Source of the DNA: Escherichia virus fEg-Eco19
Strand: one strand, 5' to 3'
Sequence record: NC_073314.1
DNA length: 45,805 bases
A model generated the notes under the pieces. That model did no database searches. It worked only from the letters and a program-made list of their open reading frames with translations, and was not told the origin of the DNA. The translations under genes and the position numbers were made by a program. Shown piece after piece: positions 10,070-31,258 of the stretch (the first letter of the stretch is position 1; each line of letters begins with the position of its first letter).

Positions 10070-10090
10070 AAGGCCCCGAAAGGGGCCTTA
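10070..10090. terminator. bidirectional hairpin terminator
   Basis: AAGGCCCC-gaaa-GGGGCCTT between convergent ORFs 9605..10066(+) and 10094..10615(-). Confidence 0.5.
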
Positions 10091-16117: not shown

Positions 16118-16477
16118 ATGAGCACCGCTTTCAGTAAACGTATGCAAGGCGTGGGTACACGCCTGTTAACCAAATTCGGTAGCACGGTATCTCTGGTTCG
16201 CGCTGGCACGAAAGTGTGGGATGAAGTTCTCGGTGAATACGTCTGGTCTGCGGATGAAGTGTTGCCATTGAAAGCTGTTCCGGTTCCGGTAAACGCGGGA
16301 CTGGTGAACGGTACGACGATTCAGGCGGGAGACGTGATTGTTAAAGCCGATTGCAGCGTCGTACCGAATATGGAAGACAAGGTGCAATTCGGCGGCGAGC
16401 AATGGTCCGTCGTAGCCATTGAGAAGAAGATGGTTAACGATGATGTCGTGGCCTACTTTATTCAGGTGAGAAAATGA
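16118..16477 (+). CDS. head-tail joining protein candidate
   Basis: Internal ATG of track ORF 16037..16477; position. Confidence 0.3.
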   Translation: MSTAFSKRMQGVGTRLLTKFGSTVSLVRAGTKVWDEVLGEYVWSADEVLPLKAVPVPVNAGLVNGTTIQAGDVIVKADCSVVPNMEDKVQFGGEQWSVVAIEKKMVNDDVVAYFIQVRK

Positions 16478-16869
16478 GTTTCGCGCTGGACGTCTCTAAG
16501 TTTGTGGAAAAGGCGAAGAAGAATCCTGAGAAGGTGATGCGTCAGGTGTCTATCAAGCTGTTTTCCGCTATCATAAAGGCTAGTCCAGTGGACACCGGCC
16601 GCTTTCGTATGAACTGGATGGCGTCTGGTGGTACTTCTGCTTCCGGGATTACGGACGCCACCGATAAATCAGGAAACACGGCAACCGGAAACGCTACAAG
16701 TTTCGTAATGAAAGCCACCGACTGGCACGAGTTCACGCTAACAAATAATCTGCCGTATGCTCAACGGCTGGAGTATGGTTGGTCGCAGCAAGCGCCGCAG
16801 GGCATGGTCAGGACTAACGTGTCTCGCTTCCAGCAACTCATTAACGAAGAAGCCAACAAGGTGAAATGA
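16474..16869 (+). CDS. HK97 gp10-like tail component
   Basis: VDTGRFRMNW and NNLPYAQRLEYG match the conserved gp10-family motifs. Confidence 0.5.
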   Translation: MSFALDVSKFVEKAKKNPEKVMRQVSIKLFSAIIKASPVDTGRFRMNWMASGGTSASGITDATDKSGNTATGNATSFVMKATDWHEFTLTNNLPYAQRLEYGWSQQAPQGMVRTNVSRFQQLINEEANKVK

Positions 16870-18558: not shown

Positions 18559-19191
18559 ATGTTCTTGTATGAAGAATTTGAAAAGATACCAGCATCAAAA
18601 CGGGCGGTATCATGCCGTAAAACAATCTGCGGAGTCGGTGTCAACGATGCAGATTTCACCACCAGTATTTTCAACGGCAAAAAGTCTGTTAACCACCCGG
18701 TGTACGATATTTGGTGTGCGATGATATTCAGGTGCTACCATGGGTCCGTTAAGCATCCAACATACTCAGGAGTGGTAGTGTGTGAAGACTGGCTGTATTT
18801 CTCCAACTACTTTAAATGGTACAAAGATAACTACGTAGAGGGTTGGCATGTTGACAAAGATTTGCTTACGGATTCTAAAGAATACTCACCGGATACCTGT
18901 ATATTTGTCCCAAGAGTTTTAAACAACTTTCTAACCGACAGCGCAGCGGCTAGAGGTGACCTACCGATAGGCCTTACTTATAGGAAAACAAACGGCAAGA
19001 TTCGATGCAGGGTTAATAATCCGCTAACCGGGGTGCGCGAAAACTTAGGCGATTTTACCGATTTGGATGAAGCCATCAAGGCCAGAACGCTGCGGAAGTT
19101 AGAGATAGCCGGAGAACTTAAGCCACTTATGGATTCCATAGACGGGAGAATCTATCCGAGGGCCGTTTCTGTAATTAAGGCACAACGATAA
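18559..19191 (+). CDS. HNH endonuclease (YGGRGI/EGW-DKD-YSP family)
   Basis: ICGVGVNDADF...IWCAMIFRCY...YVEGWHVDKD...YSPDTCIFVP; paralog of 24270..24920; AT-rich. Confidence 0.55.
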   Translation: MFLYEEFEKIPASKRAVSCRKTICGVGVNDADFTTSIFNGKKSVNHPVYDIWCAMIFRCYHGSVKHPTYSGVVVCEDWLYFSNYFKWYKDNYVEGWHVDKDLLTDSKEYSPDTCIFVPRVLNNFLTDSAAARGDLPIGLTYRKTNGKIRCRVNNPLTGVRENLGDFTDLDEAIKARTLRKLEIAGELKPLMDSIDGRIYPRAVSVIKAQR

Positions 19192-19196
19192 AACTA

Positions 19197-19220
19197 AGGC
19201 CCCTTTCGGGGCCTTTTTCT
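19197..19220. terminator. bidirectional hairpin terminator
   Basis: AGGCCCC-tttc-GGGGCCT with T-run; sits between convergent genes. Confidence 0.5.
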
Positions 19221-19450: not shown

Positions 19451-19640
19451 TGTTAACTCTCTTAAATCTGGCTATGCCTGACTCGTTAATGTTGCCTATT
19501 TCAAAGAAGCTGCGATATTTAGGCGAATACATTCTTACGTCGCCGTTCTCTAGGGTGACCCCTTCATATACAGCGCCTACTTCGAATCCATTTTTCTCCG
19601 CGTACGGACTCACATCGGTGCATTCATACATATCTTTCAT
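19440..19640 (-). CDS. small hypothetical protein
   Basis: 66-aa ORF overlapping both neighbours. Confidence 0.4.
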   Translation of the reverse strand: MKDMYECTDVSPYAEKNGFEVGAVYEGVTLENGDVRMYSPKYRSFFEIGNINESGIARFKRVNSDK

Positions 19641-20767
19641 CCCAGCATCTCCGGTGAAATAGTTAAACGTGCGACCTCGCCATATTCGGCACTATAGGTA
19701 ATTACATTTGCACTACGGCCTGACATCCATCCACCGCGCGAGGCGTAGGCGTCTTTAGCCGCCAGGGTGCGGTGTTGCTCAACAATCATGTTACGGCTTT
19801 CCACAATCTTCTGATGGTGGAGGTGGCCTATGTGGGCGTAGCTGTAAACGCTTTCGCCAAATGCTTTGCGGAACTTGGCAATCATAACCGGTTCGATAGC
19901 GTCGAATCGTGCCTTATGCCCGTGGTGAAAGAACAGCGTCGTTTTGCCGTGTTGCACCATCTTGTAAACATCTGGCGACGTATCGACGAACACACGAGGC
20001 TCATTGTCGTACAGCGTACTAAACATCTCAGCTAACCAAATCATTCCGCTTTCGTCGTGGTTTCCTTGCACGATAAGCAAGCGAACATTTTTATGCTTAA
20101 CCAGCGCCATACCGACAACACGGCGGACCATACGAATCATGTAGCGGACAAGTTTCTGATAGCGAGTGTCCGCATCAAGAACGTGACCACTTGCGGGGGT
20201 AACCGCATCCAGACTATCGAAGTGCGCAAGGTCGCCCAGCAGGTTAATAACTCCTGTTCCCGCGTCCGGTGCTTTCTGGAATGCCGCGTCGAACCATCGA
20301 GAGAACAGGTCTTCTGCAATCTTCATGTCCCAGTCGTCGCCGCTCTCGTCGGCCCAGGCCAGCATACCGAGATGGAAATCAGATACAGTGTAAAGATTAA
20401 GTAGTTTATCGTCACGTTTGGCGCGAACGGCTTTAACAGGCGCAACCGGCGTAATCTCTGACTTCATGCCCTCGATTACAGCTTTCATCAACTCGACCTG
20501 ACGTTCTGCGTCAGTGTCGGTCTTAACCCATTGCAGCTTAGTGTTGCCGAACTCGTCCACAAGTGACGATGTGCCTTTAATCTTGTAGCCATCCGGCACA
20601 AGATGGCTAACGTCACGACCGTGACCTACGCCTTTCTTCGCCAGCTTCGCTTTACGGATACGAATAACTCGGTCTGAGATGCCGTATTTACGGGATATGT
20701 CGATAATCTTTGTTCCGGCGTTCAATTCTTCCTGTAACTGTTCGTCGGTTATTTTCTTCTGGGCCAT
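19637..20767 (-). CDS. HTH-domain protein fused to calcineurin-like metallophosphoesterase
   Basis: N-terminal IIDISRKYGISDRVIRIRKAKL (HTH-like); then phosphoesterase motifs DFHLG, GDLAHFD, GNHDE, HHGH, GHLHH; GAGGAAG RBS. Confidence 0.6.
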   Translation of the reverse strand: MAQKKITDEQLQEELNAGTKIIDISRKYGISDRVIRIRKAKLAKKGVGHGRDVSHLVPDGYKIKGTSSLVDEFGNTKLQWVKTDTDAERQVELMKAVIEGMKSEITPVAPVKAVRAKRDDKLLNLYTVSDFHLGMLAWADESGDDWDMKIAEDLFSRWFDAAFQKAPDAGTGVINLLGDLAHFDSLDAVTPASGHVLDADTRYQKLVRYMIRMVRRVVGMALVKHKNVRLLIVQGNHDESGMIWLAEMFSTLYDNEPRVFVDTSPDVYKMVQHGKTTLFFHHGHKARFDAIEPVMIAKFRKAFGESVYSYAHIGHLHHQKIVESRNMIVEQHRTLAAKDAYASRGGWMSGRSANVITYSAEYGEVARLTISPEMLG

Positions 20768-20805
20768 GCTTACTTCCTCGTGTTTAGGATTTGTCCTATA
20801 CTAGC

Positions 20806-20997
20806 TCACTTCTCGTTAACATTCGAGTTGCACGCCCAGATTAAAATAAATACCCACGGCAGCAGAACCCAACCGAGAAACAGGTTAGCCATGAATATCG
20901 CTAATTTAGCTTTATGGCTGCGCATATGCGCCACGAGAAATGGGATAAAATAAACTAAAACGATAATGATTAAGAAGAACATAGTAATACCTGTCAT
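20806..20997 (-). CDS. small membrane protein (2 TM)
   Basis: 63 aa, two hydrophobic helices; first gene downstream of promoter at ~21039-21067. Confidence 0.5.
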   Translation of the reverse strand: MTGITMFFLIIIVLVYFIPFLVAHMRSHKAKLAIFMANLFLGWVLLPWVFILIWACNSNVNEK

Positions 20998-21038
20998 GGG
21001 GTAGCTCCTGTTTGAGTTAACATTGTTGGTGTAAGTGA

Positions 21039-21067
21039 ATAGTACCCTATTATATTGGGGTGTGCAA
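21039..21067 (-). promoter_or_regulatory. sigma70-like promoter (TTGCAC-N17-TACTAT class) with AATAG-N4-CTATT palindrome
   Basis: Near-identical to the 10641-10669 element (shared run GAATAGTACCCTATTATATTGGGGTGTGCAA). Confidence 0.45.
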
Positions 21068-21175
21068 GTAATGTGTTAGAATTATTTTGCGCCTAGTGTC
21101 GCACACGAAAAGCGGGTGGTTCCCGTCTGGCGCATTTACCGTTAACCTGAAACCTCTTAACCAAAGGATTAAAGA

Positions 21176-21595
21176 ATGAAACTTTCTGATTTTTATTTCG
21201 AAGAGAAAGCACTGGTAGGCAAGAAGATGCCGATTCTGCTACCAAACGGCGAAGACTCTGGCGAGTGGCTTAATGTTGTAAGCCCGGATGCAGATGCTGC
21301 CGTTAAAGCGGGGCGTGCTTTCATTATCGCGTACCGTCGCGGGTTGGCGCGCTTTGAAGAACTGGAAAAAGCCGCCAAAGAATCCGGCGACTATACTGAG
21401 TACAACCTGTCGGTTAACGAACTAGCGGAAGACCTCAACCGTCAACTCGCGGCAGAAGTCGTAAACGGCTGGAGTTTTGACGATGAGCCTTTCTCTAAGG
21501 AAGCATTTAACAAATTGCTCGACCAGTTCAAAGGGCTTGGAACACAAGTAGCGGCGTTTCATAACGCTGAACGTAAAGCATTACAGGAAAAGTAG
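21176..21595 (+). CDS. tail assembly chaperone (G-like)
   Basis: 139-aa acidic protein immediately upstream of tape measure. Confidence 0.5.
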   Translation: MKLSDFYFEEKALVGKKMPILLPNGEDSGEWLNVVSPDADAAVKAGRAFIIAYRRGLARFEELEKAAKESGDYTEYNLSVNELAEDLNRQLAAEVVNGWSFDDEPFSKEAFNKLLDQFKGLGTQVAAFHNAERKALQEK

Positions 21596-21960
21596 ACGCG
21601 CTGTACAGGTTCGCCACCTATGAGTTCGTTGATAAGCATAAAATCAGAGAGTTTGATTCTATAGCTGACGGGCACGAACAGGCGCTTATCGCGATGGGTG
21701 TAATCGATAAGAAAAAACGTGCAGCGCGACGGGGCGGGCCAGAATGCCCGCCCCTTTTTATATCCACCTTTGAGACGTATTGCGACATTAAGTTTACGCG
21801 ACACGTGCGCGAGGACGCTGTAGTATTGTTTGCAAGAGAATCCGTTACGTGGCAAGACCTGAAAGCCTATCTCGATGTTACGCAAAAACAGCTTAGCCTG
21901 TTCGAGATAGACATTATCATGGGCTTAGAAGCAATCTTTGAAGGTAGAAATCATGGCTGA
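21577..21960 (+). CDS. -1 frame extension (T segment) of tail assembly chaperone
   Basis: The -1 frame is open from ~21577, overlapping the last 6 codons of G, and runs to 21960; candidate slip at G-GAA-AAG (~21586-21592). Confidence 0.4.
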   Translation, partial: SITGKVDALYRFATYEFVDKHKIREFDSIADGHEQALIAMGVIDKKKRAARRGGPECPPLFISTFETYCDIKFTRHVREDAVVLFARESVTWQDLKAYLDVTQKQLSLFEIDIIMGLEAIFEGRNHG

Positions 21961-24226
21961 TACCGCTAGCTTGATAGTACGAGTATCATCGACCGGCGTC
22001 GATAAAACCACATCACAATTGAACGGGCTTACCAAAGCCGCAGGTGCTGCCGCGGCTGCCGTTGTCAGTCTGGAAACCGCAAAACAGGTGTTCAGTGCGC
22101 TGGTGGACTCTCAGCGCAACTTCGATAAGCTGAACTCCGGCCTCATCACAATGACCGGGAGCGCCGAGAACGCGGCTAAGGCTTTCAGCGTCCTGCAACA
22201 GTTCGCAAAAGAGACTCCATACGGGCTTAACCAGGCGGTTGAGGGCTTCACTAAACTTGTAGCCCTCGGCCTGAACCCCAGCAAAGAGGCGTTAATCTCC
22301 TACGGCAATACCGCCGCTGCGATGGGTAAAGACCTTAATCAGATGATTGAGGCCGTAGCCGACGCCAGTACCTTTGAGTTTGAGCGACTGAAAGAGTTTG
22401 GCATCAAGTCGTCGCAACAGGCGGATACGGTTTCTTTCACGTTCCGTGGCGTAACGACTACTGTTAAGAAGAACTCCGAAGAGATTCAGAAATACCTGCT
22501 AAACATCGGTAACACTGATTTCGCCGGGGCGATGGAGACGCGCTCGAAGACCTTAGACGGTCAGTTATCCAGCTTGGCGGACTCTTTCGATGGTCTTGTA
22601 CTCGCAGTTGCGCAATCAGGTTTCGGCGACGCCGTAGGTGAGCAAGCTGCGAAGGCAGAAGATGCGATCACGGCACTTACCGACGCCATCGCGTCTAATG
22701 AGATAGCCGCCACGCTCCAGGATTGGGTGACACTGTTCAATGAATCGTTCAAGTTTATTTCTGATGCCTTAAACGACCTGGCATACGATACAGAGGACAA
22801 ATCCGTGGATATGTCCGACTCTCTGGGGACTATCCCGGACGCTATTCGTGAATGGTTGCCTGACATCCAGCAGACGTTTCACGAGGTTATTGCGTGGTTC
22901 CAGCGCATTGACGATTACGCCGTAGCGTTAGGTCAGACCCTTGCCGACGTGTTTGACCCGAGCAAAACGGCGGCACTCACATTTAAAAACCTGACCGCAG
23001 AAGCTGACGCCGCATACGTCGCCAGCATAAAACGCGCCGAGGCCGAATCACAGGCCATCACCAACAGGTCTAAGCAGCGTAAGAAAGAAATTGAGGAACA
23101 GCGCAAGCAGTACGACGAGCGCAAGAAGCAAGAAATTGACTTAGCCAGCCTTGTTAATAAAAAAGGTGGAACTGGCGGCACCGGAAACACCGACGATAAA
23201 GACGCGAAAGCCGCCGCTAAGAAAGCGGAGCAATTGCGTAAACAGGCTCAGGATTATCTGGACACTTTGGCCCGTCAGAACAACGACGAGTTAAAGGCTA
23301 TTGACGCCCAGGAACAGCAGAAACTGGCTAAAGCAAAAGAGTTCTACAGCCAGGGCGCGTTGTCTCTGAAAGAATACGAGCAAGCAAAAACAGCTATCGT
23401 CCTCGAAGCCGGACAAAAACGGCAAGATGAACTGGATAAACGCCAGAAAGAAGCCCTGGAAAAGCAGCAGAAAGGCGACGACTTCATGGCCCAGATTATG
23501 GGTCAGAACGCTACTGAGCTTGAGCTTCTCGACATCCAGGAACAGCAGAAGTTGGCGGTAGCCGATAAGTACCGTGAACAGGGTCTGATTAGCGAGAAGC
23601 AGTATCAGGCCGCGCTCAACGCCATCAACGAGCAATACGCCACCAAGCGTGCTGAGGCAACGGCAACGGCCTTTGGTAACATGGCCTCAAATATCGGGTC
23701 CGCGTTGGGCGAGGCTTCTGGCGCATATAAGGCATTCGCTATCGTACAGGCCACTATCGCCACGTACACCGCAGCTATTGAAGCGTATAAGTCAACGGCC
23801 GCTATCCCTGTTGTTGGTCCGTTCCTGGCACCTGTAGCCGCTGCTGCTGCCGTTGGGGCGGGTATGGCGCAGATTTCCGCTATCAGGTCCGCCCGTGAAC
23901 AAGGCGGTCAGTTATCTGCGGGGCAGGCTTCTACTATCGCCGAACGTGGTAAACCAGAAGTTATCATGCCCGCGGGCGCATCGCGGGTTCGCACTGCACA
24001 GCAGATGAAAGAAATTATGGGGCAAAACGGCGGCGGTACCGGGCCGGCCAATATCAGCATTATAAATAACACCAGCGCACAAATTGGTAATACCAGTGTT
24101 GAACAGGACGAAGAAGGCCGCTTGCGTATCATCATAGAGGAGCAAGTTGCTGCTTCACTGCAGAATAGTAACAGCAAAATATCGAAAGCTAGGAAGGCTA
24201 CAAGAAACGCACCCGGCTTTAAGTAG
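21953..24226 (+). CDS. tape measure protein
   Basis: Long Ala/Gln/Lys-rich coiled-coil protein with internal EQQKLA repeats; follows G/GT. Confidence 0.8.
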   Translation: MADTASLIVRVSSTGVDKTTSQLNGLTKAAGAAAAAVVSLETAKQVFSALVDSQRNFDKLNSGLITMTGSAENAAKAFSVLQQFAKETPYGLNQAVEGFTKLVALGLNPSKEALISYGNTAAAMGKDLNQMIEAVADASTFEFERLKEFGIKSSQQADTVSFTFRGVTTTVKKNSEEIQKYLLNIGNTDFAGAMETRSKTLDGQLSSLADSFDGLVLAVAQSGFGDAVGEQAAKAEDAITALTDAIASNEIAATLQDWVTLFNESFKFISDALNDLAYDTEDKSVDMSDSLGTIPDAIREWLPDIQQTFHEVIAWFQRIDDYAVALGQTLADVFDPSKTAALTFKNLTAEADAAYVASIKRAEAESQAITNRSKQRKKEIEEQRKQYDERKKQEIDLASLVNKKGGTGGTGNTDDKDAKAAAKKAEQLRKQAQDYLDTLARQNNDELKAIDAQEQQKLAKAKEFYSQGALSLKEYEQAKTAIVLEAGQKRQDELDKRQKEALEKQQKGDDFMAQIMGQNATELELLDIQEQQKLAVADKYREQGLISEKQYQAALNAINEQYATKRAEATATAFGNMASNIGSALGEASGAYKAFAIVQATIATYTAAIEAYKSTAAIPVVGPFLAPVAAAAAVGAGMAQISAIRSAREQGGQLSAGQASTIAERGKPEVIMPAGASRVRTAQQMKEIMGQNGGGTGPANISIINNTSAQIGNTSVEQDEEGRLRIIIEEQVAASLQNSNSKISKARKATRNAPGFK

Positions 24227-24269: not shown

Positions 24270-24920
24270 CTAACGACCCTCTTTTATCAAGGCGATAACG
24301 CGGTCGAACATACCTTCCCTTATCGCCTCTATCTCACATCTTCTTGATTCCGCCGCCCTTATCTTTTCAACAATGTAAGCATCTAGCGCTTCTTCCTGAG
24401 TTTCAAAACGTCCTAGATTAATAGTTTTTTTATCACAGCTCACTGAGGCTTTAAATTTACCTCTAGATTCTTCATAAAAAACACCTGTAGGTGTTCCACT
24501 ATTTTTCTTCTCCTTTAGGAAAACATTCAACCATTTCGGGATGAAAATGCAAGTGGTAGGGCTGTATACCTTATTAATACCAGAGAATATGTCCTTATCT
24601 AGCTCCCATCCCTCCACATAATTACAAAGCCACCATCTACGGAAGGACATAAACCTTTGCCACCCATGCCACACAGTTACATCCCTGTACGCAGGCCTTT
24701 TGTTTTTATACTCGGCGTCCACGCAACGTTGGATCATCCCTCGCCATGTAGCGTACGCCAGACACGTCTCACGGCTGCCGTTTATCTTGGGGCTAACCAC
24801 ATAATCGGCGTCATTTATGCCAAAACCACATATAGTTGCGCGCTTAGTTTTGCTGCTTTTGTTCGCAGGATAATTCGCACGCAGCCACATGCTCTTGGCT
24901 ACTTTTTCGGTTGGCATCAT
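24270..24920 (-). CDS. HNH endonuclease (YGGRGI/EGW-DKD-YSP family)
   Basis: Internal ATG with AGGAGA RBS; ICGFGINDADY...YVEGWELDKD...YSPTTCIFIP; paralog of 18559..19191; AT-rich. Confidence 0.55.
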   Translation of the reverse strand: MMPTEKVAKSMWLRANYPANKSSKTKRATICGFGINDADYVVSPKINGSRETCLAYATWRGMIQRCVDAEYKNKRPAYRDVTVWHGWQRFMSFRRWWLCNYVEGWELDKDIFSGINKVYSPTTCIFIPKWLNVFLKEKKNSGTPTGVFYEESRGKFKASVSCDKKTINLGRFETQEEALDAYIVEKIRAAESRRCEIEAIREGMFDRVIALIKEGR

Positions 24921-24955
24921 GTTAGTATCTCCTAAACTAATAGGAGTATCTTGCC

Positions 24956-25456
24956 ATGTCTTCTTTGAAATTTCCAGCAAGTTTAAAGCCGGTGGTGTCG
25001 AAAGGCTACTCAATGACCAGACGTAACAACGTCTGGAGCGTCGATTTAGCTGGCGGAGGTGTACGTCAGGGACGCGACACGTATTACGACGTGTTCCCGA
25101 TAAGCGTAACCCTGATTACATCGGCGCTAGGGCGGCAGGCGTTTCTGTCGTTCCTTGAGAAAGTCGATGGCGGTGCGTCAAGTTTCTGGATGGCACATGA
25201 CTTCGGCATGGGTATCGAGGATTACCAGGTAACAATCACGTCAACCATCGCTGAGTCCACCGAAGACGGGATTAACTGGACAATTACTTTCACGGCAACC
25301 GCTGAGAAATCGCCGTTCCAGGATCTTGAGAACCAGTGCCTGATTAACAATCTGCCGGATTTGTACGGTTGCTATGGTGACGGGCTGGGGTGTTTCCTTA
25401 AAGCCTACGGAACTGCACAATCAACGTTTCCACGAATTTGGGACCCGATGCAATGA
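24956..25456 (+). CDS. minor tail protein (distal tail, M-like by position)
   Basis: First tail gene after tape measure; AGGAG RBS. Confidence 0.45.
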   Translation: MSSLKFPASLKPVVSKGYSMTRRNNVWSVDLAGGGVRQGRDTYYDVFPISVTLITSALGRQAFLSFLEKVDGGASSFWMAHDFGMGIEDYQVTITSTIAESTEDGINWTITFTATAEKSPFQDLENQCLINNLPDLYGCYGDGLGCFLKAYGTAQSTFPRIWDPMQ

Positions 25457-31231: not shown

Positions 31232-31258
31232 AAGGCCCCAAACGGGGCCTTTTCTCTA
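31232..31258 (+). terminator. rho-independent terminator
   Basis: AAGGCCCC-aaac-GGGGCCTT followed by TTCTC. Confidence 0.55.

What the first reader, a model, noticed from the sequence alone, without database searches (positions are those of the whole stretch)
21577..21960. Tail chaperone G/GT arrangement with a non-canonical candidate slip site
The -1 frame is open across the last six codons of the chaperone gene and continues to overlap the tape measure start, as in the conserved G/GT programmed frameshift. The only candidate slip sequence in the overlap is G-GAA-AAG (~21586-21592), which has a good A-site (AAG to AAA) but an imperfect P-site triplet.
Basis: partly seen in the sequence, partly recalled or inferred. 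Interest (0 to 1): 0.3.

Follow-up and report, generated by a model that had tools for sequence, protein, structure and literature searches.

The report
Tail chaperone frameshift at A-AAG-stop
This is the ordinary tail-assembly-chaperone (G/GT) -1 frameshift of a K1G-like coliphage, already annotated in close relatives, and its slip site is a minimal A-AAG set directly against the stop codon, a layout kept across the whole phage group.

Summary
The chaperone gene G (21176-21595) ends CAG GAA AAG TAG. The -1 frame opens at 21577 and runs 127 codons to a TGA at 21958-21960, overlapping the tape-measure ATG (21953). The window is a Kagunavirus (K1G-like).

The -1 frame encodes a real T domain (Pfam PF23812, E=1e-18). 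It is conserved in about 490 phage genomes. The fusion I predict for K1G (...ALQEK|VDALY...) is identical to GenBank YP_009168804.1, so the frameshift is already annotated.

New detail comes from 88 related loci (77 distinct sequences):
- The conserved signal is not a heptamer. It is A_AAG (A_AAA in a few) followed directly by TAG or TAA.
- The preceding codon varies (GAA, GCA, TCA, GGA, AAA) but always ends in A.
- A few lineages carry canonical heptamers at the same spot: G_GGA_AAG, A_AAA_AAG, A_AAA_AAA.
- The codon phase of sequence variation switches from the G frame to the T frame exactly at the slip site.
- No conserved RNA structure or Shine-Dalgarno-like stimulator was found.

Most likely mechanism: tRNA-Lys slips from AAG to AAA, probably while the stop codon waits in the A site. 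This timing is inferred, not shown.

Side finding: a strong terminator-like hairpin (21731-21754) lies inside T and shows covariation in about half of the lineages.

Ordinary finding, low interest.

The parts
20998..21175 (+). Divergent intergenic region upstream of G. It contains the G ribosome-binding site AAGGA (21164-21168) and presumably the promoter of the G-T-TMP transcription unit.
   Evidence: Genes to the left are on the minus strand. The Serratia phage Eta record annotates putative promoters in the homologous region. The consensus scan found no strong sigma-70 match here, so the promoter is inferred.
21176..21595 (+). Tail assembly chaperone gene G (139 aa), 0 frame.
   Evidence: PF08748 Phage_TAC_4 at 22.1 bits (cut-off 21.1). 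phrog_15027 at 4e-69, positions 1-138 of 259. Annotated as tail assembly chaperone in K1G and others.
21586..21592 (+). Slip site. The quasi-heptamer is G_GAA_AAG; the conserved core is the tetramer A_AAG at 21589-21592.
   Evidence: A-A-A is invariant in 77 of 77 distinct relatives, followed by G in 73 and A in 4. The base at 21589 stays A although the codon it ends varies (GAA, GCA, TCA, GGA, AAA).
21593..21595 (+). G stop codon TAG, directly 3' of the slip codon. It is probably part of the signal.
   Evidence: TAG or TAA is immediately adjacent in 57 of 58 distinct junctions. In the remaining one it lies one codon later. TGA never occurs. The overlapping T-frame codon is GTA (ATA in 4 distinct sequences, GTT in 1), although GTA is only 25% of Val codons in this phage.
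21598..21603 (+). GCGCTG: T-frame codons 4-5 (Ala-Leu) with suppressed synonymous variation. Role unexplained.
   Evidence: Of 43 T-frame third positions, the only ones with entropy below 0.35 bits are in codons 1, 2, 4 and 5. Other invariant Ala and Leu codons vary by about 1.5 bits.
21592..21960 (+). T segment read in the -1 frame after the slip (122 codons plus TGA). The fusion GT is 21176-21592 joined to 21592-21957, 261 aa.
   Evidence: PF23812 Phage_TAC_18 at 1.1e-18. Alignment A1. The phase of sequence variation follows the T frame from the slip site onward. The same construct for K1G equals YP_009168804.1.
21731..21763 (+). Terminator-like hairpin GGGGCGGGC-cagaat-GCCCGCCCC followed by TTTTTATAT, inside the T frame on the G-P-E-C-P-P-L-F motif.
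   Evidence: -22.5 kcal/mol, z = -2.05. It is the strongest of 17 such hairpins in the window, against 0-4 in shuffles. Covariation in relatives. In 79 distinct loci such hits number 40 in T, 1 in G and 2 in the TMP 5' part.
21953..24226 (+). Tape measure protein gene (757 aa). Its start overlaps the T stop (ATGGCTGA).
   Evidence: phrog_1538 at 2.6e-193. PF20155 TMP_3 at 38.8 bits, just under the 41-bit cut-off. Annotated as TMP in relatives.

Best explanation
This is a programmed -1 ribosomal frameshift of the lambda G/GT type.

Most ribosomes translate G (21176-21592) and terminate at TAG (21593-21595), giving the 139-aa chaperone. A minority slip back one base on A_AAG: tRNA-Lys leaves AAG (21590-21592) and re-pairs with AAA (21589-21591). 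Those ribosomes then read GTA GAC GCG CTG ... to the TGA at 21958-21960. The product is a 261-aa G-T fusion (...ALQEK-VDALYRF...).

By analogy with lambda, the G part binds the tape-measure protein and the T part recruits the major tail protein.

I infer that the slip mostly happens with peptidyl-tRNA-Lys in the P site while the slowly decoded stop codon occupies the A site. On that view the adjacent stop acts as the pause element in place of an RNA structure.

Shown here: the frames, the homology, the conserved signal and the identity to annotated fusion proteins.
Inferred: that the shift occurs at all in vivo, its efficiency, and the P-site timing.
For: 1. Both halves are chaperone domains, and one PHROG profile spans them as a single protein.

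2. The -1 frame is homologous from residue 1-5 onward in 490 phage records at 41-100% identity.

3. Across 77 distinct relatives, variability peaks at G-frame third positions upstream (1.52-1.59 bits, against 0.77-1.13 at the other positions). Downstream it peaks at T-frame third positions (1.36 against 0.61-0.69 over the 33 codons before the first ATG). The switch falls at the slip site.

4. AAA-G-T-A is essentially invariant. The A at 21589 is kept through five different penultimate codons, which is a nucleotide-level constraint and not a protein-level one.

5. Independent lineages carry canonical heptamers at exactly this position: G_GGA_AAG (L024), A_AAA_AAG (L054, L062) and A_AAA_AAA (L084-L089).

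6. The stop is adjacent in 57 of 58 distinct junctions. It is retained even where Val becomes Ile (ATA).

7. T has no ATG, GTG or TTG before 21694 and no Shine-Dalgarno sequence there.

8. My predicted K1G and fPoEco01 fusions match the deposited proteins YP_009168804.1 and YP_010749081.1 exactly.

9. Literature: A_AAG is by far the best -1 tetramer in E. coli (PMC4066793). NNA_AAG sites are used by IS1222 and B. subtilis cdd (PMC5009743). Ribosomes stalled at stop codons can reposition their P-site tRNA (PMC6815119).
Against: - No experimental detection of the fusion is known to me for this phage group.
- In reporter assays Z_ZZN tetramers without a stimulator were barely above background (0.147% against 0.112%). 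They needed a pseudoknot to reach 5.6% (PMC4066793).
- I found no stimulator here. The 115 nt after the site fold no better than shuffles (z = +0.66). RNAalifold gives no consensus structure from -40 to +129. No conserved Shine-Dalgarno-like element lies upstream. There is no Rfam hit.
- The review PMC5009743 notes that a slow A-site codon matters more for +1 than for -1 shifts.
- The P-site re-pairing GAA to GGA is imperfect.
- A YTG codon (CTG at 21601) is invariant four codons after the slip (T-frame codon 5) and could in principle be a start.
Confidence: 0.88

Rival explanations
1. Same -1 frameshift and same product, but with different timing. The slip occurs while AAG is still in the A site, either as a single A-site tRNA-Lys slip or as a tandem near-cognate slip on G_GAA_AAG with a G:U pair at the middle P-site position. 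On this view the adjacent stop is conserved only to keep the C-terminus of G short. This is nested within the best explanation and is not exclusive at the level of the product.
For: Classical NNA_AAG and heptamer models place AAG in the A site (PMC5009743, PMC4066793). G_GAA_AAG is the majority form: G at -3 in 61 of 77 distinct sequences, G at -2 in 70, and A at -1 in 63. Several lineages have true heptamers. In L051 the stop lies one codon later. Lambda has five sense codons between G_GGA_AAG and its stop.
Against: Lineages with GCA_AAG or TCA_AAG cannot re-pair their P-site tRNA, yet they keep the same layout. The stop is adjacent in 57 of 58 distinct junctions, is never TGA, and is retained where the overlapping amino acid changes. 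No other stimulator was found.
Confidence: 0.4
2. T is made as a separate protein and not as a fusion. Initiation or termination-reinitiation would occur at the conserved CTG/TTG (21601) or at ATG 21694, as many GenBank records annotate.
For: Separate CDSs are annotated in LDW16, Ent3, Bas75, Eta, Jersey, SLMP1, phiWAO78-1 and JSSK01. Codon 5 of T is always YTG, with no synonymous variation. AGGA lies 13 nt upstream of it in the window.
Against: CTG, present in 61 of 77 distinct sequences, is a very poor start codon. The GGA is absent in the GCA and TCA lineages. An ATG-21694 product would lack 35 conserved codons that are under T-frame purifying selection. Nothing in this model explains the invariant A_AAG, the invariant third-position A of a variable codon, or the canonical heptamers that appear at this exact spot. 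In the lambda model a free T cannot link TMP to the tail tube protein (PMC5009743).
Confidence: 0.06
3. The frame change is made by RNA polymerase slippage on the A run (GGAAAAG) and not by the ribosome.
For: The most distant lineages have runs of 7 A (GCAAAAAAATAR), where transcriptional slippage is conceivable.
Against: The window and most relatives have only four A. From established knowledge, this is far below the roughly 7-9 identical bases needed for productive transcriptional slippage. The conserved G after the run and the adjacent stop point to decoding and not to transcription.
Confidence: 0.02

Closest known systems
Escherichia phage K1G ORF22A/ORF22B (YP_009168805.1 / YP_009168804.1) and fPoEco01 gp25/gp26
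   Same: Same genes in the same genus. The T segment is 100% identical to K1G. The slip site and stop are the same. The deposited joined CDS equals the fusion predicted here.
   Different: The window's G has one extra residue (139 aa against 138 aa). The window's exact 261-aa fusion is not itself in the protein collection.
Phage lambda gpG/gpGT (Levin, Hendrix and Casjens 1993; Xu, Hendrix and Duda 2004, 2013, 2014)
   Same: Two overlapping ORFs lie just upstream of the tape-measure gene. The shift is -1 near the end of G. The A-site codon is AAG. The T stop and TMP start overlap with the identical sequence ATGGCTGA. No RNA stimulator was found here.
   Different: Lambda uses the canonical heptamer G_GGA_AAG, with five sense codons before the G stop. 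Here the P-site codon is GAA and the stop is adjacent. Lambda G follows the major tail gene V directly. Here a block of opposite-strand genes intervenes. No sequence family links the two G proteins in my searches.
NNA_AAG / Z_ZZN minimal -1 sites: IS1222 (G_CGA_AAG) and Bacillus subtilis cdd (A_CGA_AAG)
   Same: A single tRNA-Lys slips from AAG to AAA with a non-slippery preceding codon (PMC5009743, PMC4066793).
   Different: As recalled from the primary papers, those sites rely on a downstream pseudoknot (IS1222) or an upstream Shine-Dalgarno-like element (cdd). Neither is detectable here. Here the stop codon abuts the site.
'Shifty stop' recoding (Weiss et al. 1987; prfB +1 at CUU_UGA)
   Same: A slip-prone codon lies directly 5' of a stop codon, so that slow termination could give the P-site tRNA time to re-pair.
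   Different: prfB shifts +1 and needs an upstream Shine-Dalgarno sequence. The direction here is -1 and no Shine-Dalgarno sequence is conserved. Dependence on release factor is untested.

Membership tests
Tail assembly chaperone G/GT programmed frameshift (lambda paradigm) | Two overlapping ORFs immediately upstream of the tape-measure gene, the second in the -1 frame. | tested here: met
   G is 21176-21595. The -1 frame is open from 21577 to 21960. The TMP ATG is at 21953.
Tail assembly chaperone G/GT programmed frameshift (lambda paradigm) | Position between the major tail protein gene and the tape-measure gene. | tested here: inconclusive
   The order is kept but not the adjacency. In K1G the putative tail protein gene is followed by four opposite-strand genes (ATP-binding protein, polynucleotide kinase, exonuclease, superinfection immunity) before G. 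The window shows an exonuclease and an immunity gene just upstream of G on the minus strand.
Tail assembly chaperone G/GT programmed frameshift (lambda paradigm) | First ORF belongs to a tail assembly chaperone family. | tested here: met
   PF08748 at 22.1 bits (cut-off 21.1). phrog_15027 at 4e-69. phrog_313 at 6e-28.
Tail assembly chaperone G/GT programmed frameshift (lambda paradigm) | Second ORF lacks its own start signals, and its conservation extends up to the overlap. | tested here: met
   There is no ATG, GTG or TTG before 21694. T-frame purifying selection begins right after the slip site. tblastn matches start at residues 1-5. Caveat: a conserved CTG/TTG lies at codon 5.
Tail assembly chaperone G/GT programmed frameshift (lambda paradigm) | Canonical slippery heptamer X_XXY_YYZ in the overlap. 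| tested here: not met
   The window has G_GAA_AAG. Only the tetramer A_AAG is canonical (Z_ZZN). Canonical heptamers occur at the same site in some relatives (L024, L054, L062, L084-L089).
Tail assembly chaperone G/GT programmed frameshift (lambda paradigm) | Slip signal conserved among relatives. | tested here: met
   A_AAR is present in 77 of 77 distinct sequences. The stop is adjacent in 57 of 58 distinct junctions.
Tail assembly chaperone G/GT programmed frameshift (lambda paradigm) | Fusion protein made at a few per cent of G and required for tail assembly. | not testable with these tools
   This needs proteomics, a reporter or genetics. Only annotation exists.
Minimal Z_ZZN / NNA_AAG -1 frameshift sites | A_AAG allowing cognate re-pairing of tRNA-Lys in the -1 frame. 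| tested here: met
   A_AAG lies at 21589-21592 and is conserved.
Minimal Z_ZZN / NNA_AAG -1 frameshift sites | Flanking stimulator: a downstream hairpin or pseudoknot 5-9 nt away, or an upstream Shine-Dalgarno-like element. | tested here: not met
   The fold z-score is +0.66. The RNAalifold consensus is empty. Entropy is high at -10 to -17. There is no Rfam match. Pseudoknots were not searched explicitly.
Shifty-stop recoding | Slip-prone codon immediately 5' of a stop codon. | tested here: met
   The sequence is AAG TAG in the window. TAG or TAA is adjacent in 57 of 58 distinct junctions.
Shifty-stop recoding | Efficiency depends on stop codon identity and on release-factor level. | not testable with these tools
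   The only indirect hints are that TGA never occurs and that the base after the stop is A or C in 74 of 77 distinct sequences.
Rho-independent (intrinsic) terminator (for the hairpin at 21731-21763) | G+C-rich stem-loop followed directly by a U-run on the transcribed strand. | tested here: met
   The stem has 9 G-C pairs, the loop is 6 nt, and the tail is TTTTTATAT. G:U wobble variants show that the plus-strand RNA is the folded species.
Rho-independent (intrinsic) terminator (for the hairpin at 21731-21763) | Transcripts end there in vivo or in vitro. | not testable with these tools
   Needs Term-seq, 3' RACE or in vitro transcription.

The most novel reading that the evidence does not exclude
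The terminator-like hairpin inside T (21731-21763) may be a working attenuator between G and the tape-measure gene. More than 95% of ribosomes would stop at the G stop, so the T segment is largely ribosome-free. The hairpin can then fold and end most transcripts, giving much more G than TMP. A ribosome that has frameshifted into T would follow the polymerase and could prevent the hairpin from forming. That would tie transcription of TMP and the distal tail genes to the frameshift event. On this reading recoding sets the G:GT protein ratio and also gates downstream transcription.
Probability: 0.12. Interest if true: 0.6.

Novelty: already known. Interest (0 to 1): 0.22.

Why it matters
For this window the result mainly fixes annotation. 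Genes 21176-21595 and 21592-21960 should be recorded as G and a joined GT product. They should not be recorded as a chaperone plus an 88-aa or 119-aa "hypothetical protein", as many Kagunavirus and Jerseyvirus records do.

The comparative result has modest general value. A whole phage group keeps a minimal A_AAG-plus-stop signal with no detectable RNA stimulator. That explains why a published genome announcement reported "no canonical slippery sequence" for a related phage (PMC6776780). It also explains why a heptamer-only prediction rule would miss the site.

The group would be a convenient natural system for testing whether an adjacent stop codon can stimulate -1 as well as +1 shifts. If the terminator inside T proves functional, it would add a transcriptional layer to chaperone and tape-measure stoichiometry.

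Tried and rejected
- **Downstream stimulatory RNA structure.** MFE folding of 21586-21700 gave z = +0.66. RNAalifold on 48-67 distinct relatives over five windows from -40 to +129 gave empty consensus structures. Rfam gave no hit. Rejected for simple hairpins. Pseudoknots were not searched explicitly.
- **Upstream Shine-Dalgarno-like stimulator.** No conserved purine block lies at -10 to -17. The AGGA within the site is absent in the GCA and TCA lineages. Rejected.
- **The strong hairpin at 21731 as a frameshift stimulator.** It lies 139 nt 3' of the slip site, which is too far. Rejected and reinterpreted as terminator-like.
- **Independent T protein from ATG 21694.** Rejected, because 33 conserved upstream codons are under T-frame selection.
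- **Solved structures and NCBIfam.** No meaningful match for G, T or GT.
- **Thermodynamic dnaX dataset (PMC6787027).** I looked for a G_GAA_AAG measurement and found none.
- **Chance open frame.** Rejected.

Full report
**What the window is.** Megablast of 21000-22200 finds 115 phage records, nearly all Escherichia phages and Kagunavirus (K1G-like, Guernseyvirinae). The best is JSSK01 at 98.1%. The finding lies in the tail module of a known virulent siphovirus group.

**Checking the observation.**
- The ORF at 21176-21595 (139 aa) ends ...GCA TTA CAG GAA AAG TAG.
- The -1 frame has stops at 21562, 21568 and 21574. It is then open from 21577 to the TGA at 21958-21960, which is 127 codons.
- The tape-measure gene starts at ATG 21953, giving the overlap ATGGCTGA.
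- The stop density in -1 frames of this window's long ORFs is 7.35%. A 122-codon open run has a chance probability of about 9e-5.
- The frame is real coding sequence. Its translation matches Pfam PF23812 (Phage_TAC_18, E = 1.1e-18). G matches PF08748 (Phage_TAC_4, 22.1 bits against a 21.1-bit cut-off).
- One PHROG profile of 259 positions (phrog_15027) matches G at positions 1-138 and the -1 frame at positions 137-259. The family was therefore built on fused GT proteins.

**It is already annotated.**
- The K1G RefSeq record carries ORF22A (G) and a two-piece joined CDS, ORF22B. fPoEco01 labels its joined CDS a "frameshift product".
- I built the fusion by reading G through AAG and continuing from GTA in the -1 frame.
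- The K1G and fPoEco01 constructs are letter-for-letter identical to YP_009168804.1/ADA82267.1 and YP_010749081.1.
- Many other records annotate the second ORF as a separate protein or not at all.
- One genome announcement for a Guernseyvirinae-like phage states that there is "no canonical slippery sequence" (PMC6776780). The call is therefore applied inconsistently in the field, but it is not new.

**Conservation of the -1 frame.**
- tblastn of the 127-aa translation finds 492 phage records. In 490 of them at least 80% of the query is covered, down to 41% identity. These include Jerseyvirus, Serratia phage Eta and Klebsiella 37P2. Matches begin at query residues 1-5.
- I fetched nine annotated relatives and 80 IMG/VR loci using the T-domain alignment A1.

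**What is actually conserved at the junction.**
- Among 58 distinct 54-nt junctions, 53 read A_AAG followed at once by TAG or TAA.
- Four distinct junctions (36-39% identity, L084-L089) read GCA_AAA_AAA_TAR. One (L051) has the stop one codon later.
- The codon before AAG is GAA in most sequences. It is GCA, TCA, GGA or AAA in others, yet its third base is A in 77 of 77 distinct sequences. That constraint acts on the nucleotide and not on the protein. It is what the Z_ZZN tetramer A_AAG requires.
- Three lineages have canonical heptamers at exactly this position. L024, a relative with an identical T segment, has the lambda heptamer G_GGA_AAG. L054 and L062 have the dnaX heptamer A_AAA_AAG. L084-L089 have A_AAA_AAA.
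- The stop is never TGA.
- The overlapping T-frame codon is GTA, or ATA where Val becomes Ile, so the stop is kept while the amino acid changes. GTA is only 25% of Val codons in this phage.

**Frame of selection.**
- In an ungapped alignment anchored on the slip site, per-position entropy upstream is highest at G-frame third positions (1.52-1.59 bits, against 0.77-1.13 at the other positions).
- Over the 33 codons between the slip site and the first ATG (21694), it is highest at T-frame third positions (1.36 bits against 0.61-0.69).
- Translation in the T frame must therefore begin at or within a few codons of the slip site.
- This excludes the 88-aa ORF from ATG 21694 that JSSK01 and phiWAO78-1 annotate.

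**Stimulators.**
- The 115 nt from the site fold no better than shuffles (z = +0.66).
- RNAalifold on 48-67 distinct relatives gives no consensus pairs from -40 to +129.
- Rfam has no match.
- There is no conserved Shine-Dalgarno-like block upstream.
- There is, however, unexplained synonymous-site suppression. Of 43 T-frame third positions, only those of codons 1, 2, 4 and 5 have entropy below 0.35 bits. These are AAA GTA nnn GCG YTG, window 21589-21603. Other invariant Ala and Leu codons vary by about 1.5 bits. GCG is 30% of Ala codons, and CTG plus TTG are 49% of Leu codons, in this phage.

**Mechanism.**
- From the literature, A_AAG is by far the most shift-prone tetramer in E. coli. It is close to background without a stimulator and reaches 5.6% with a pseudoknot (PMC4066793).
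- NNA_AAG sites are used by IS1222 and occur in B. subtilis cdd (PMC5009743).
- Ribosomes stalled at stop codons can reposition their P-site tRNA (PMC6815119).
- The same review cautions that a slow A-site codon matters more for +1 than for -1 shifts.
- The adjacent stop is the only conserved flanking feature besides GCG-YTG. I therefore favour a slip of peptidyl-tRNA-Lys from AAG to AAA while TAG waits in the A site, followed by decoding of GTA.
- The alternative timing has AAG in the A site with near-cognate GAA to GGA re-pairing. It gives the same protein and cannot be excluded.
- I put 0.88 on a -1 ribosomal frameshift at this site. I split the timing roughly 55:45.
- Independent initiation at the invariant CTG/TTG (21601) is the only real rival for the product. 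It explains none of the A_AAG features (about 0.06).

**Comparison with lambda.**
- In lambda the heptamer G_GGA_AAG is followed by five sense codons before the G stop. The T stop and H start overlap as ATGGCTGA, the same eight bases as here.
- In lambda G directly follows the major tail gene. In this clade a block of opposite-strand genes sits between them. In the window these include an exonuclease and a superinfection immunity gene.

**Side finding: a terminator-like hairpin inside T.**
- The sequence at 21731-21754 is GGGGCGGGC-cagaat-GCCCGCCCC, followed by TTTTTATAT. It folds at -22.5 kcal/mol, z = -2.05.
- It is the strongest of 17 terminator-like hairpins in the window. Shuffled sequence gives 0-4.
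- It lies on the conserved motif G-P-E-C-P-x-[LIF]-F.
- In relatives the four-pair core is extended to 6-10 pairs by different flanking codons, so the amino acids on the two arms co-vary. The tail is T-rich.
- Within the K1G clade all three stem substitutions preserve pairing: C:G to U:G to U:A, and G:C to G:U. Loop positions change freely.
- On 23 representative sequences, 5 of 9 pairs show changes on both sides. The covariation score is 0.251 against 0.127 +/- 0.021 in shuffles (0 of 500 reach it), and 0.196 or less in the slid controls.
- In 79 distinct loci the hairpin-plus-T-run hits number 40 in T, 39 of them at the same place. There is 1 in G and 2 in the first 395 nt of TMP.
- Ent1-type Jerseyvirus, fPoEco01-type phages and Klebsiella 37P2 lack it.
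- It is 139 nt from the slip site, so it is not a frameshift stimulator.
- A plausible role is partial transcription termination in a stretch that most ribosomes never enter, which would favour G over TMP. Whether frameshifted ribosomes relieve it is speculation.

**Verdict.** The feature is an ordinary, already annotated member of the G/GT frameshift class. The useful additions are the definition of the conserved signal (A_AAG plus adjacent stop, no detectable RNA stimulator) and the terminator-like hairpin embedded in T.

Noticed in passing
window 21731-21763 (+): A strong terminator-like hairpin (9 G-C pairs, loop 6, then TTTTTATAT) lies inside the T reading frame. It recurs at the same site, with covarying stems, in about half of the related lineages. 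It is almost absent from the G and TMP coding sequence of the same loci.
   Followed up: yes
window 21598-21603 (+): GCG CTG, the fourth and fifth T-frame codons after the slip, show almost no synonymous variation across 77 distinct relatives. Other invariant Ala and Leu codons vary freely. This may be a 3' context element of the frameshift signal or a conserved YTG start. It remains unexplained.
   Followed up: partly
window 16118-16869 (+), junction near 16466-16480: This is the homologue of K1G ORF14A/ORF14B ('tail completion or Neck1 protein'), which K1G annotates as a second joined -1 product. The junction is AGA_AAA_TGA, again A_AAR plus an adjacent stop. Here, however, the downstream ORF has its own ATG overlapping the stop (AAAATGA), so ordinary translational coupling is an equally good reading.
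   Followed up: partly
window 18559-19191 (+) and 24270-25013 (-): Two paralogous ORFs share the motif ICG(V/F)G(V/I)NDAD. One has a weak AP2-domain hit (E = 3e-4, below the cut-off). They look like homing-endonuclease-type insertions. The second sits between the tape-measure gene and the next tail gene and is absent at that position in K1G.
   Followed up: partly
window 10070-10089, 19196-19215, 31232-31251 (both strands): The same bidirectional hairpin, AAGGCCCC-nnnn-GGGGCCTT, recurs three times with T-rich flanks on both strands. It appears to be a repeated two-way terminator motif between gene blocks.
   Followed up: no
window 19637-20997 (-): A block of opposite-strand genes (DNA repair exonuclease/phosphoesterase and a superinfection immunity protein, PF14373) lies immediately upstream of G. 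In K1G the corresponding block separates G from the upstream tail genes, so G heads its own transcription unit.
   Followed up: partly
window 21953-21960 and lambda NC_001416 10542-10549: The T-stop/TMP-start overlap is the identical octamer ATGGCTGA in this phage and in lambda. The chaperone proteins themselves showed no detectable family link in my searches.
   Followed up: no
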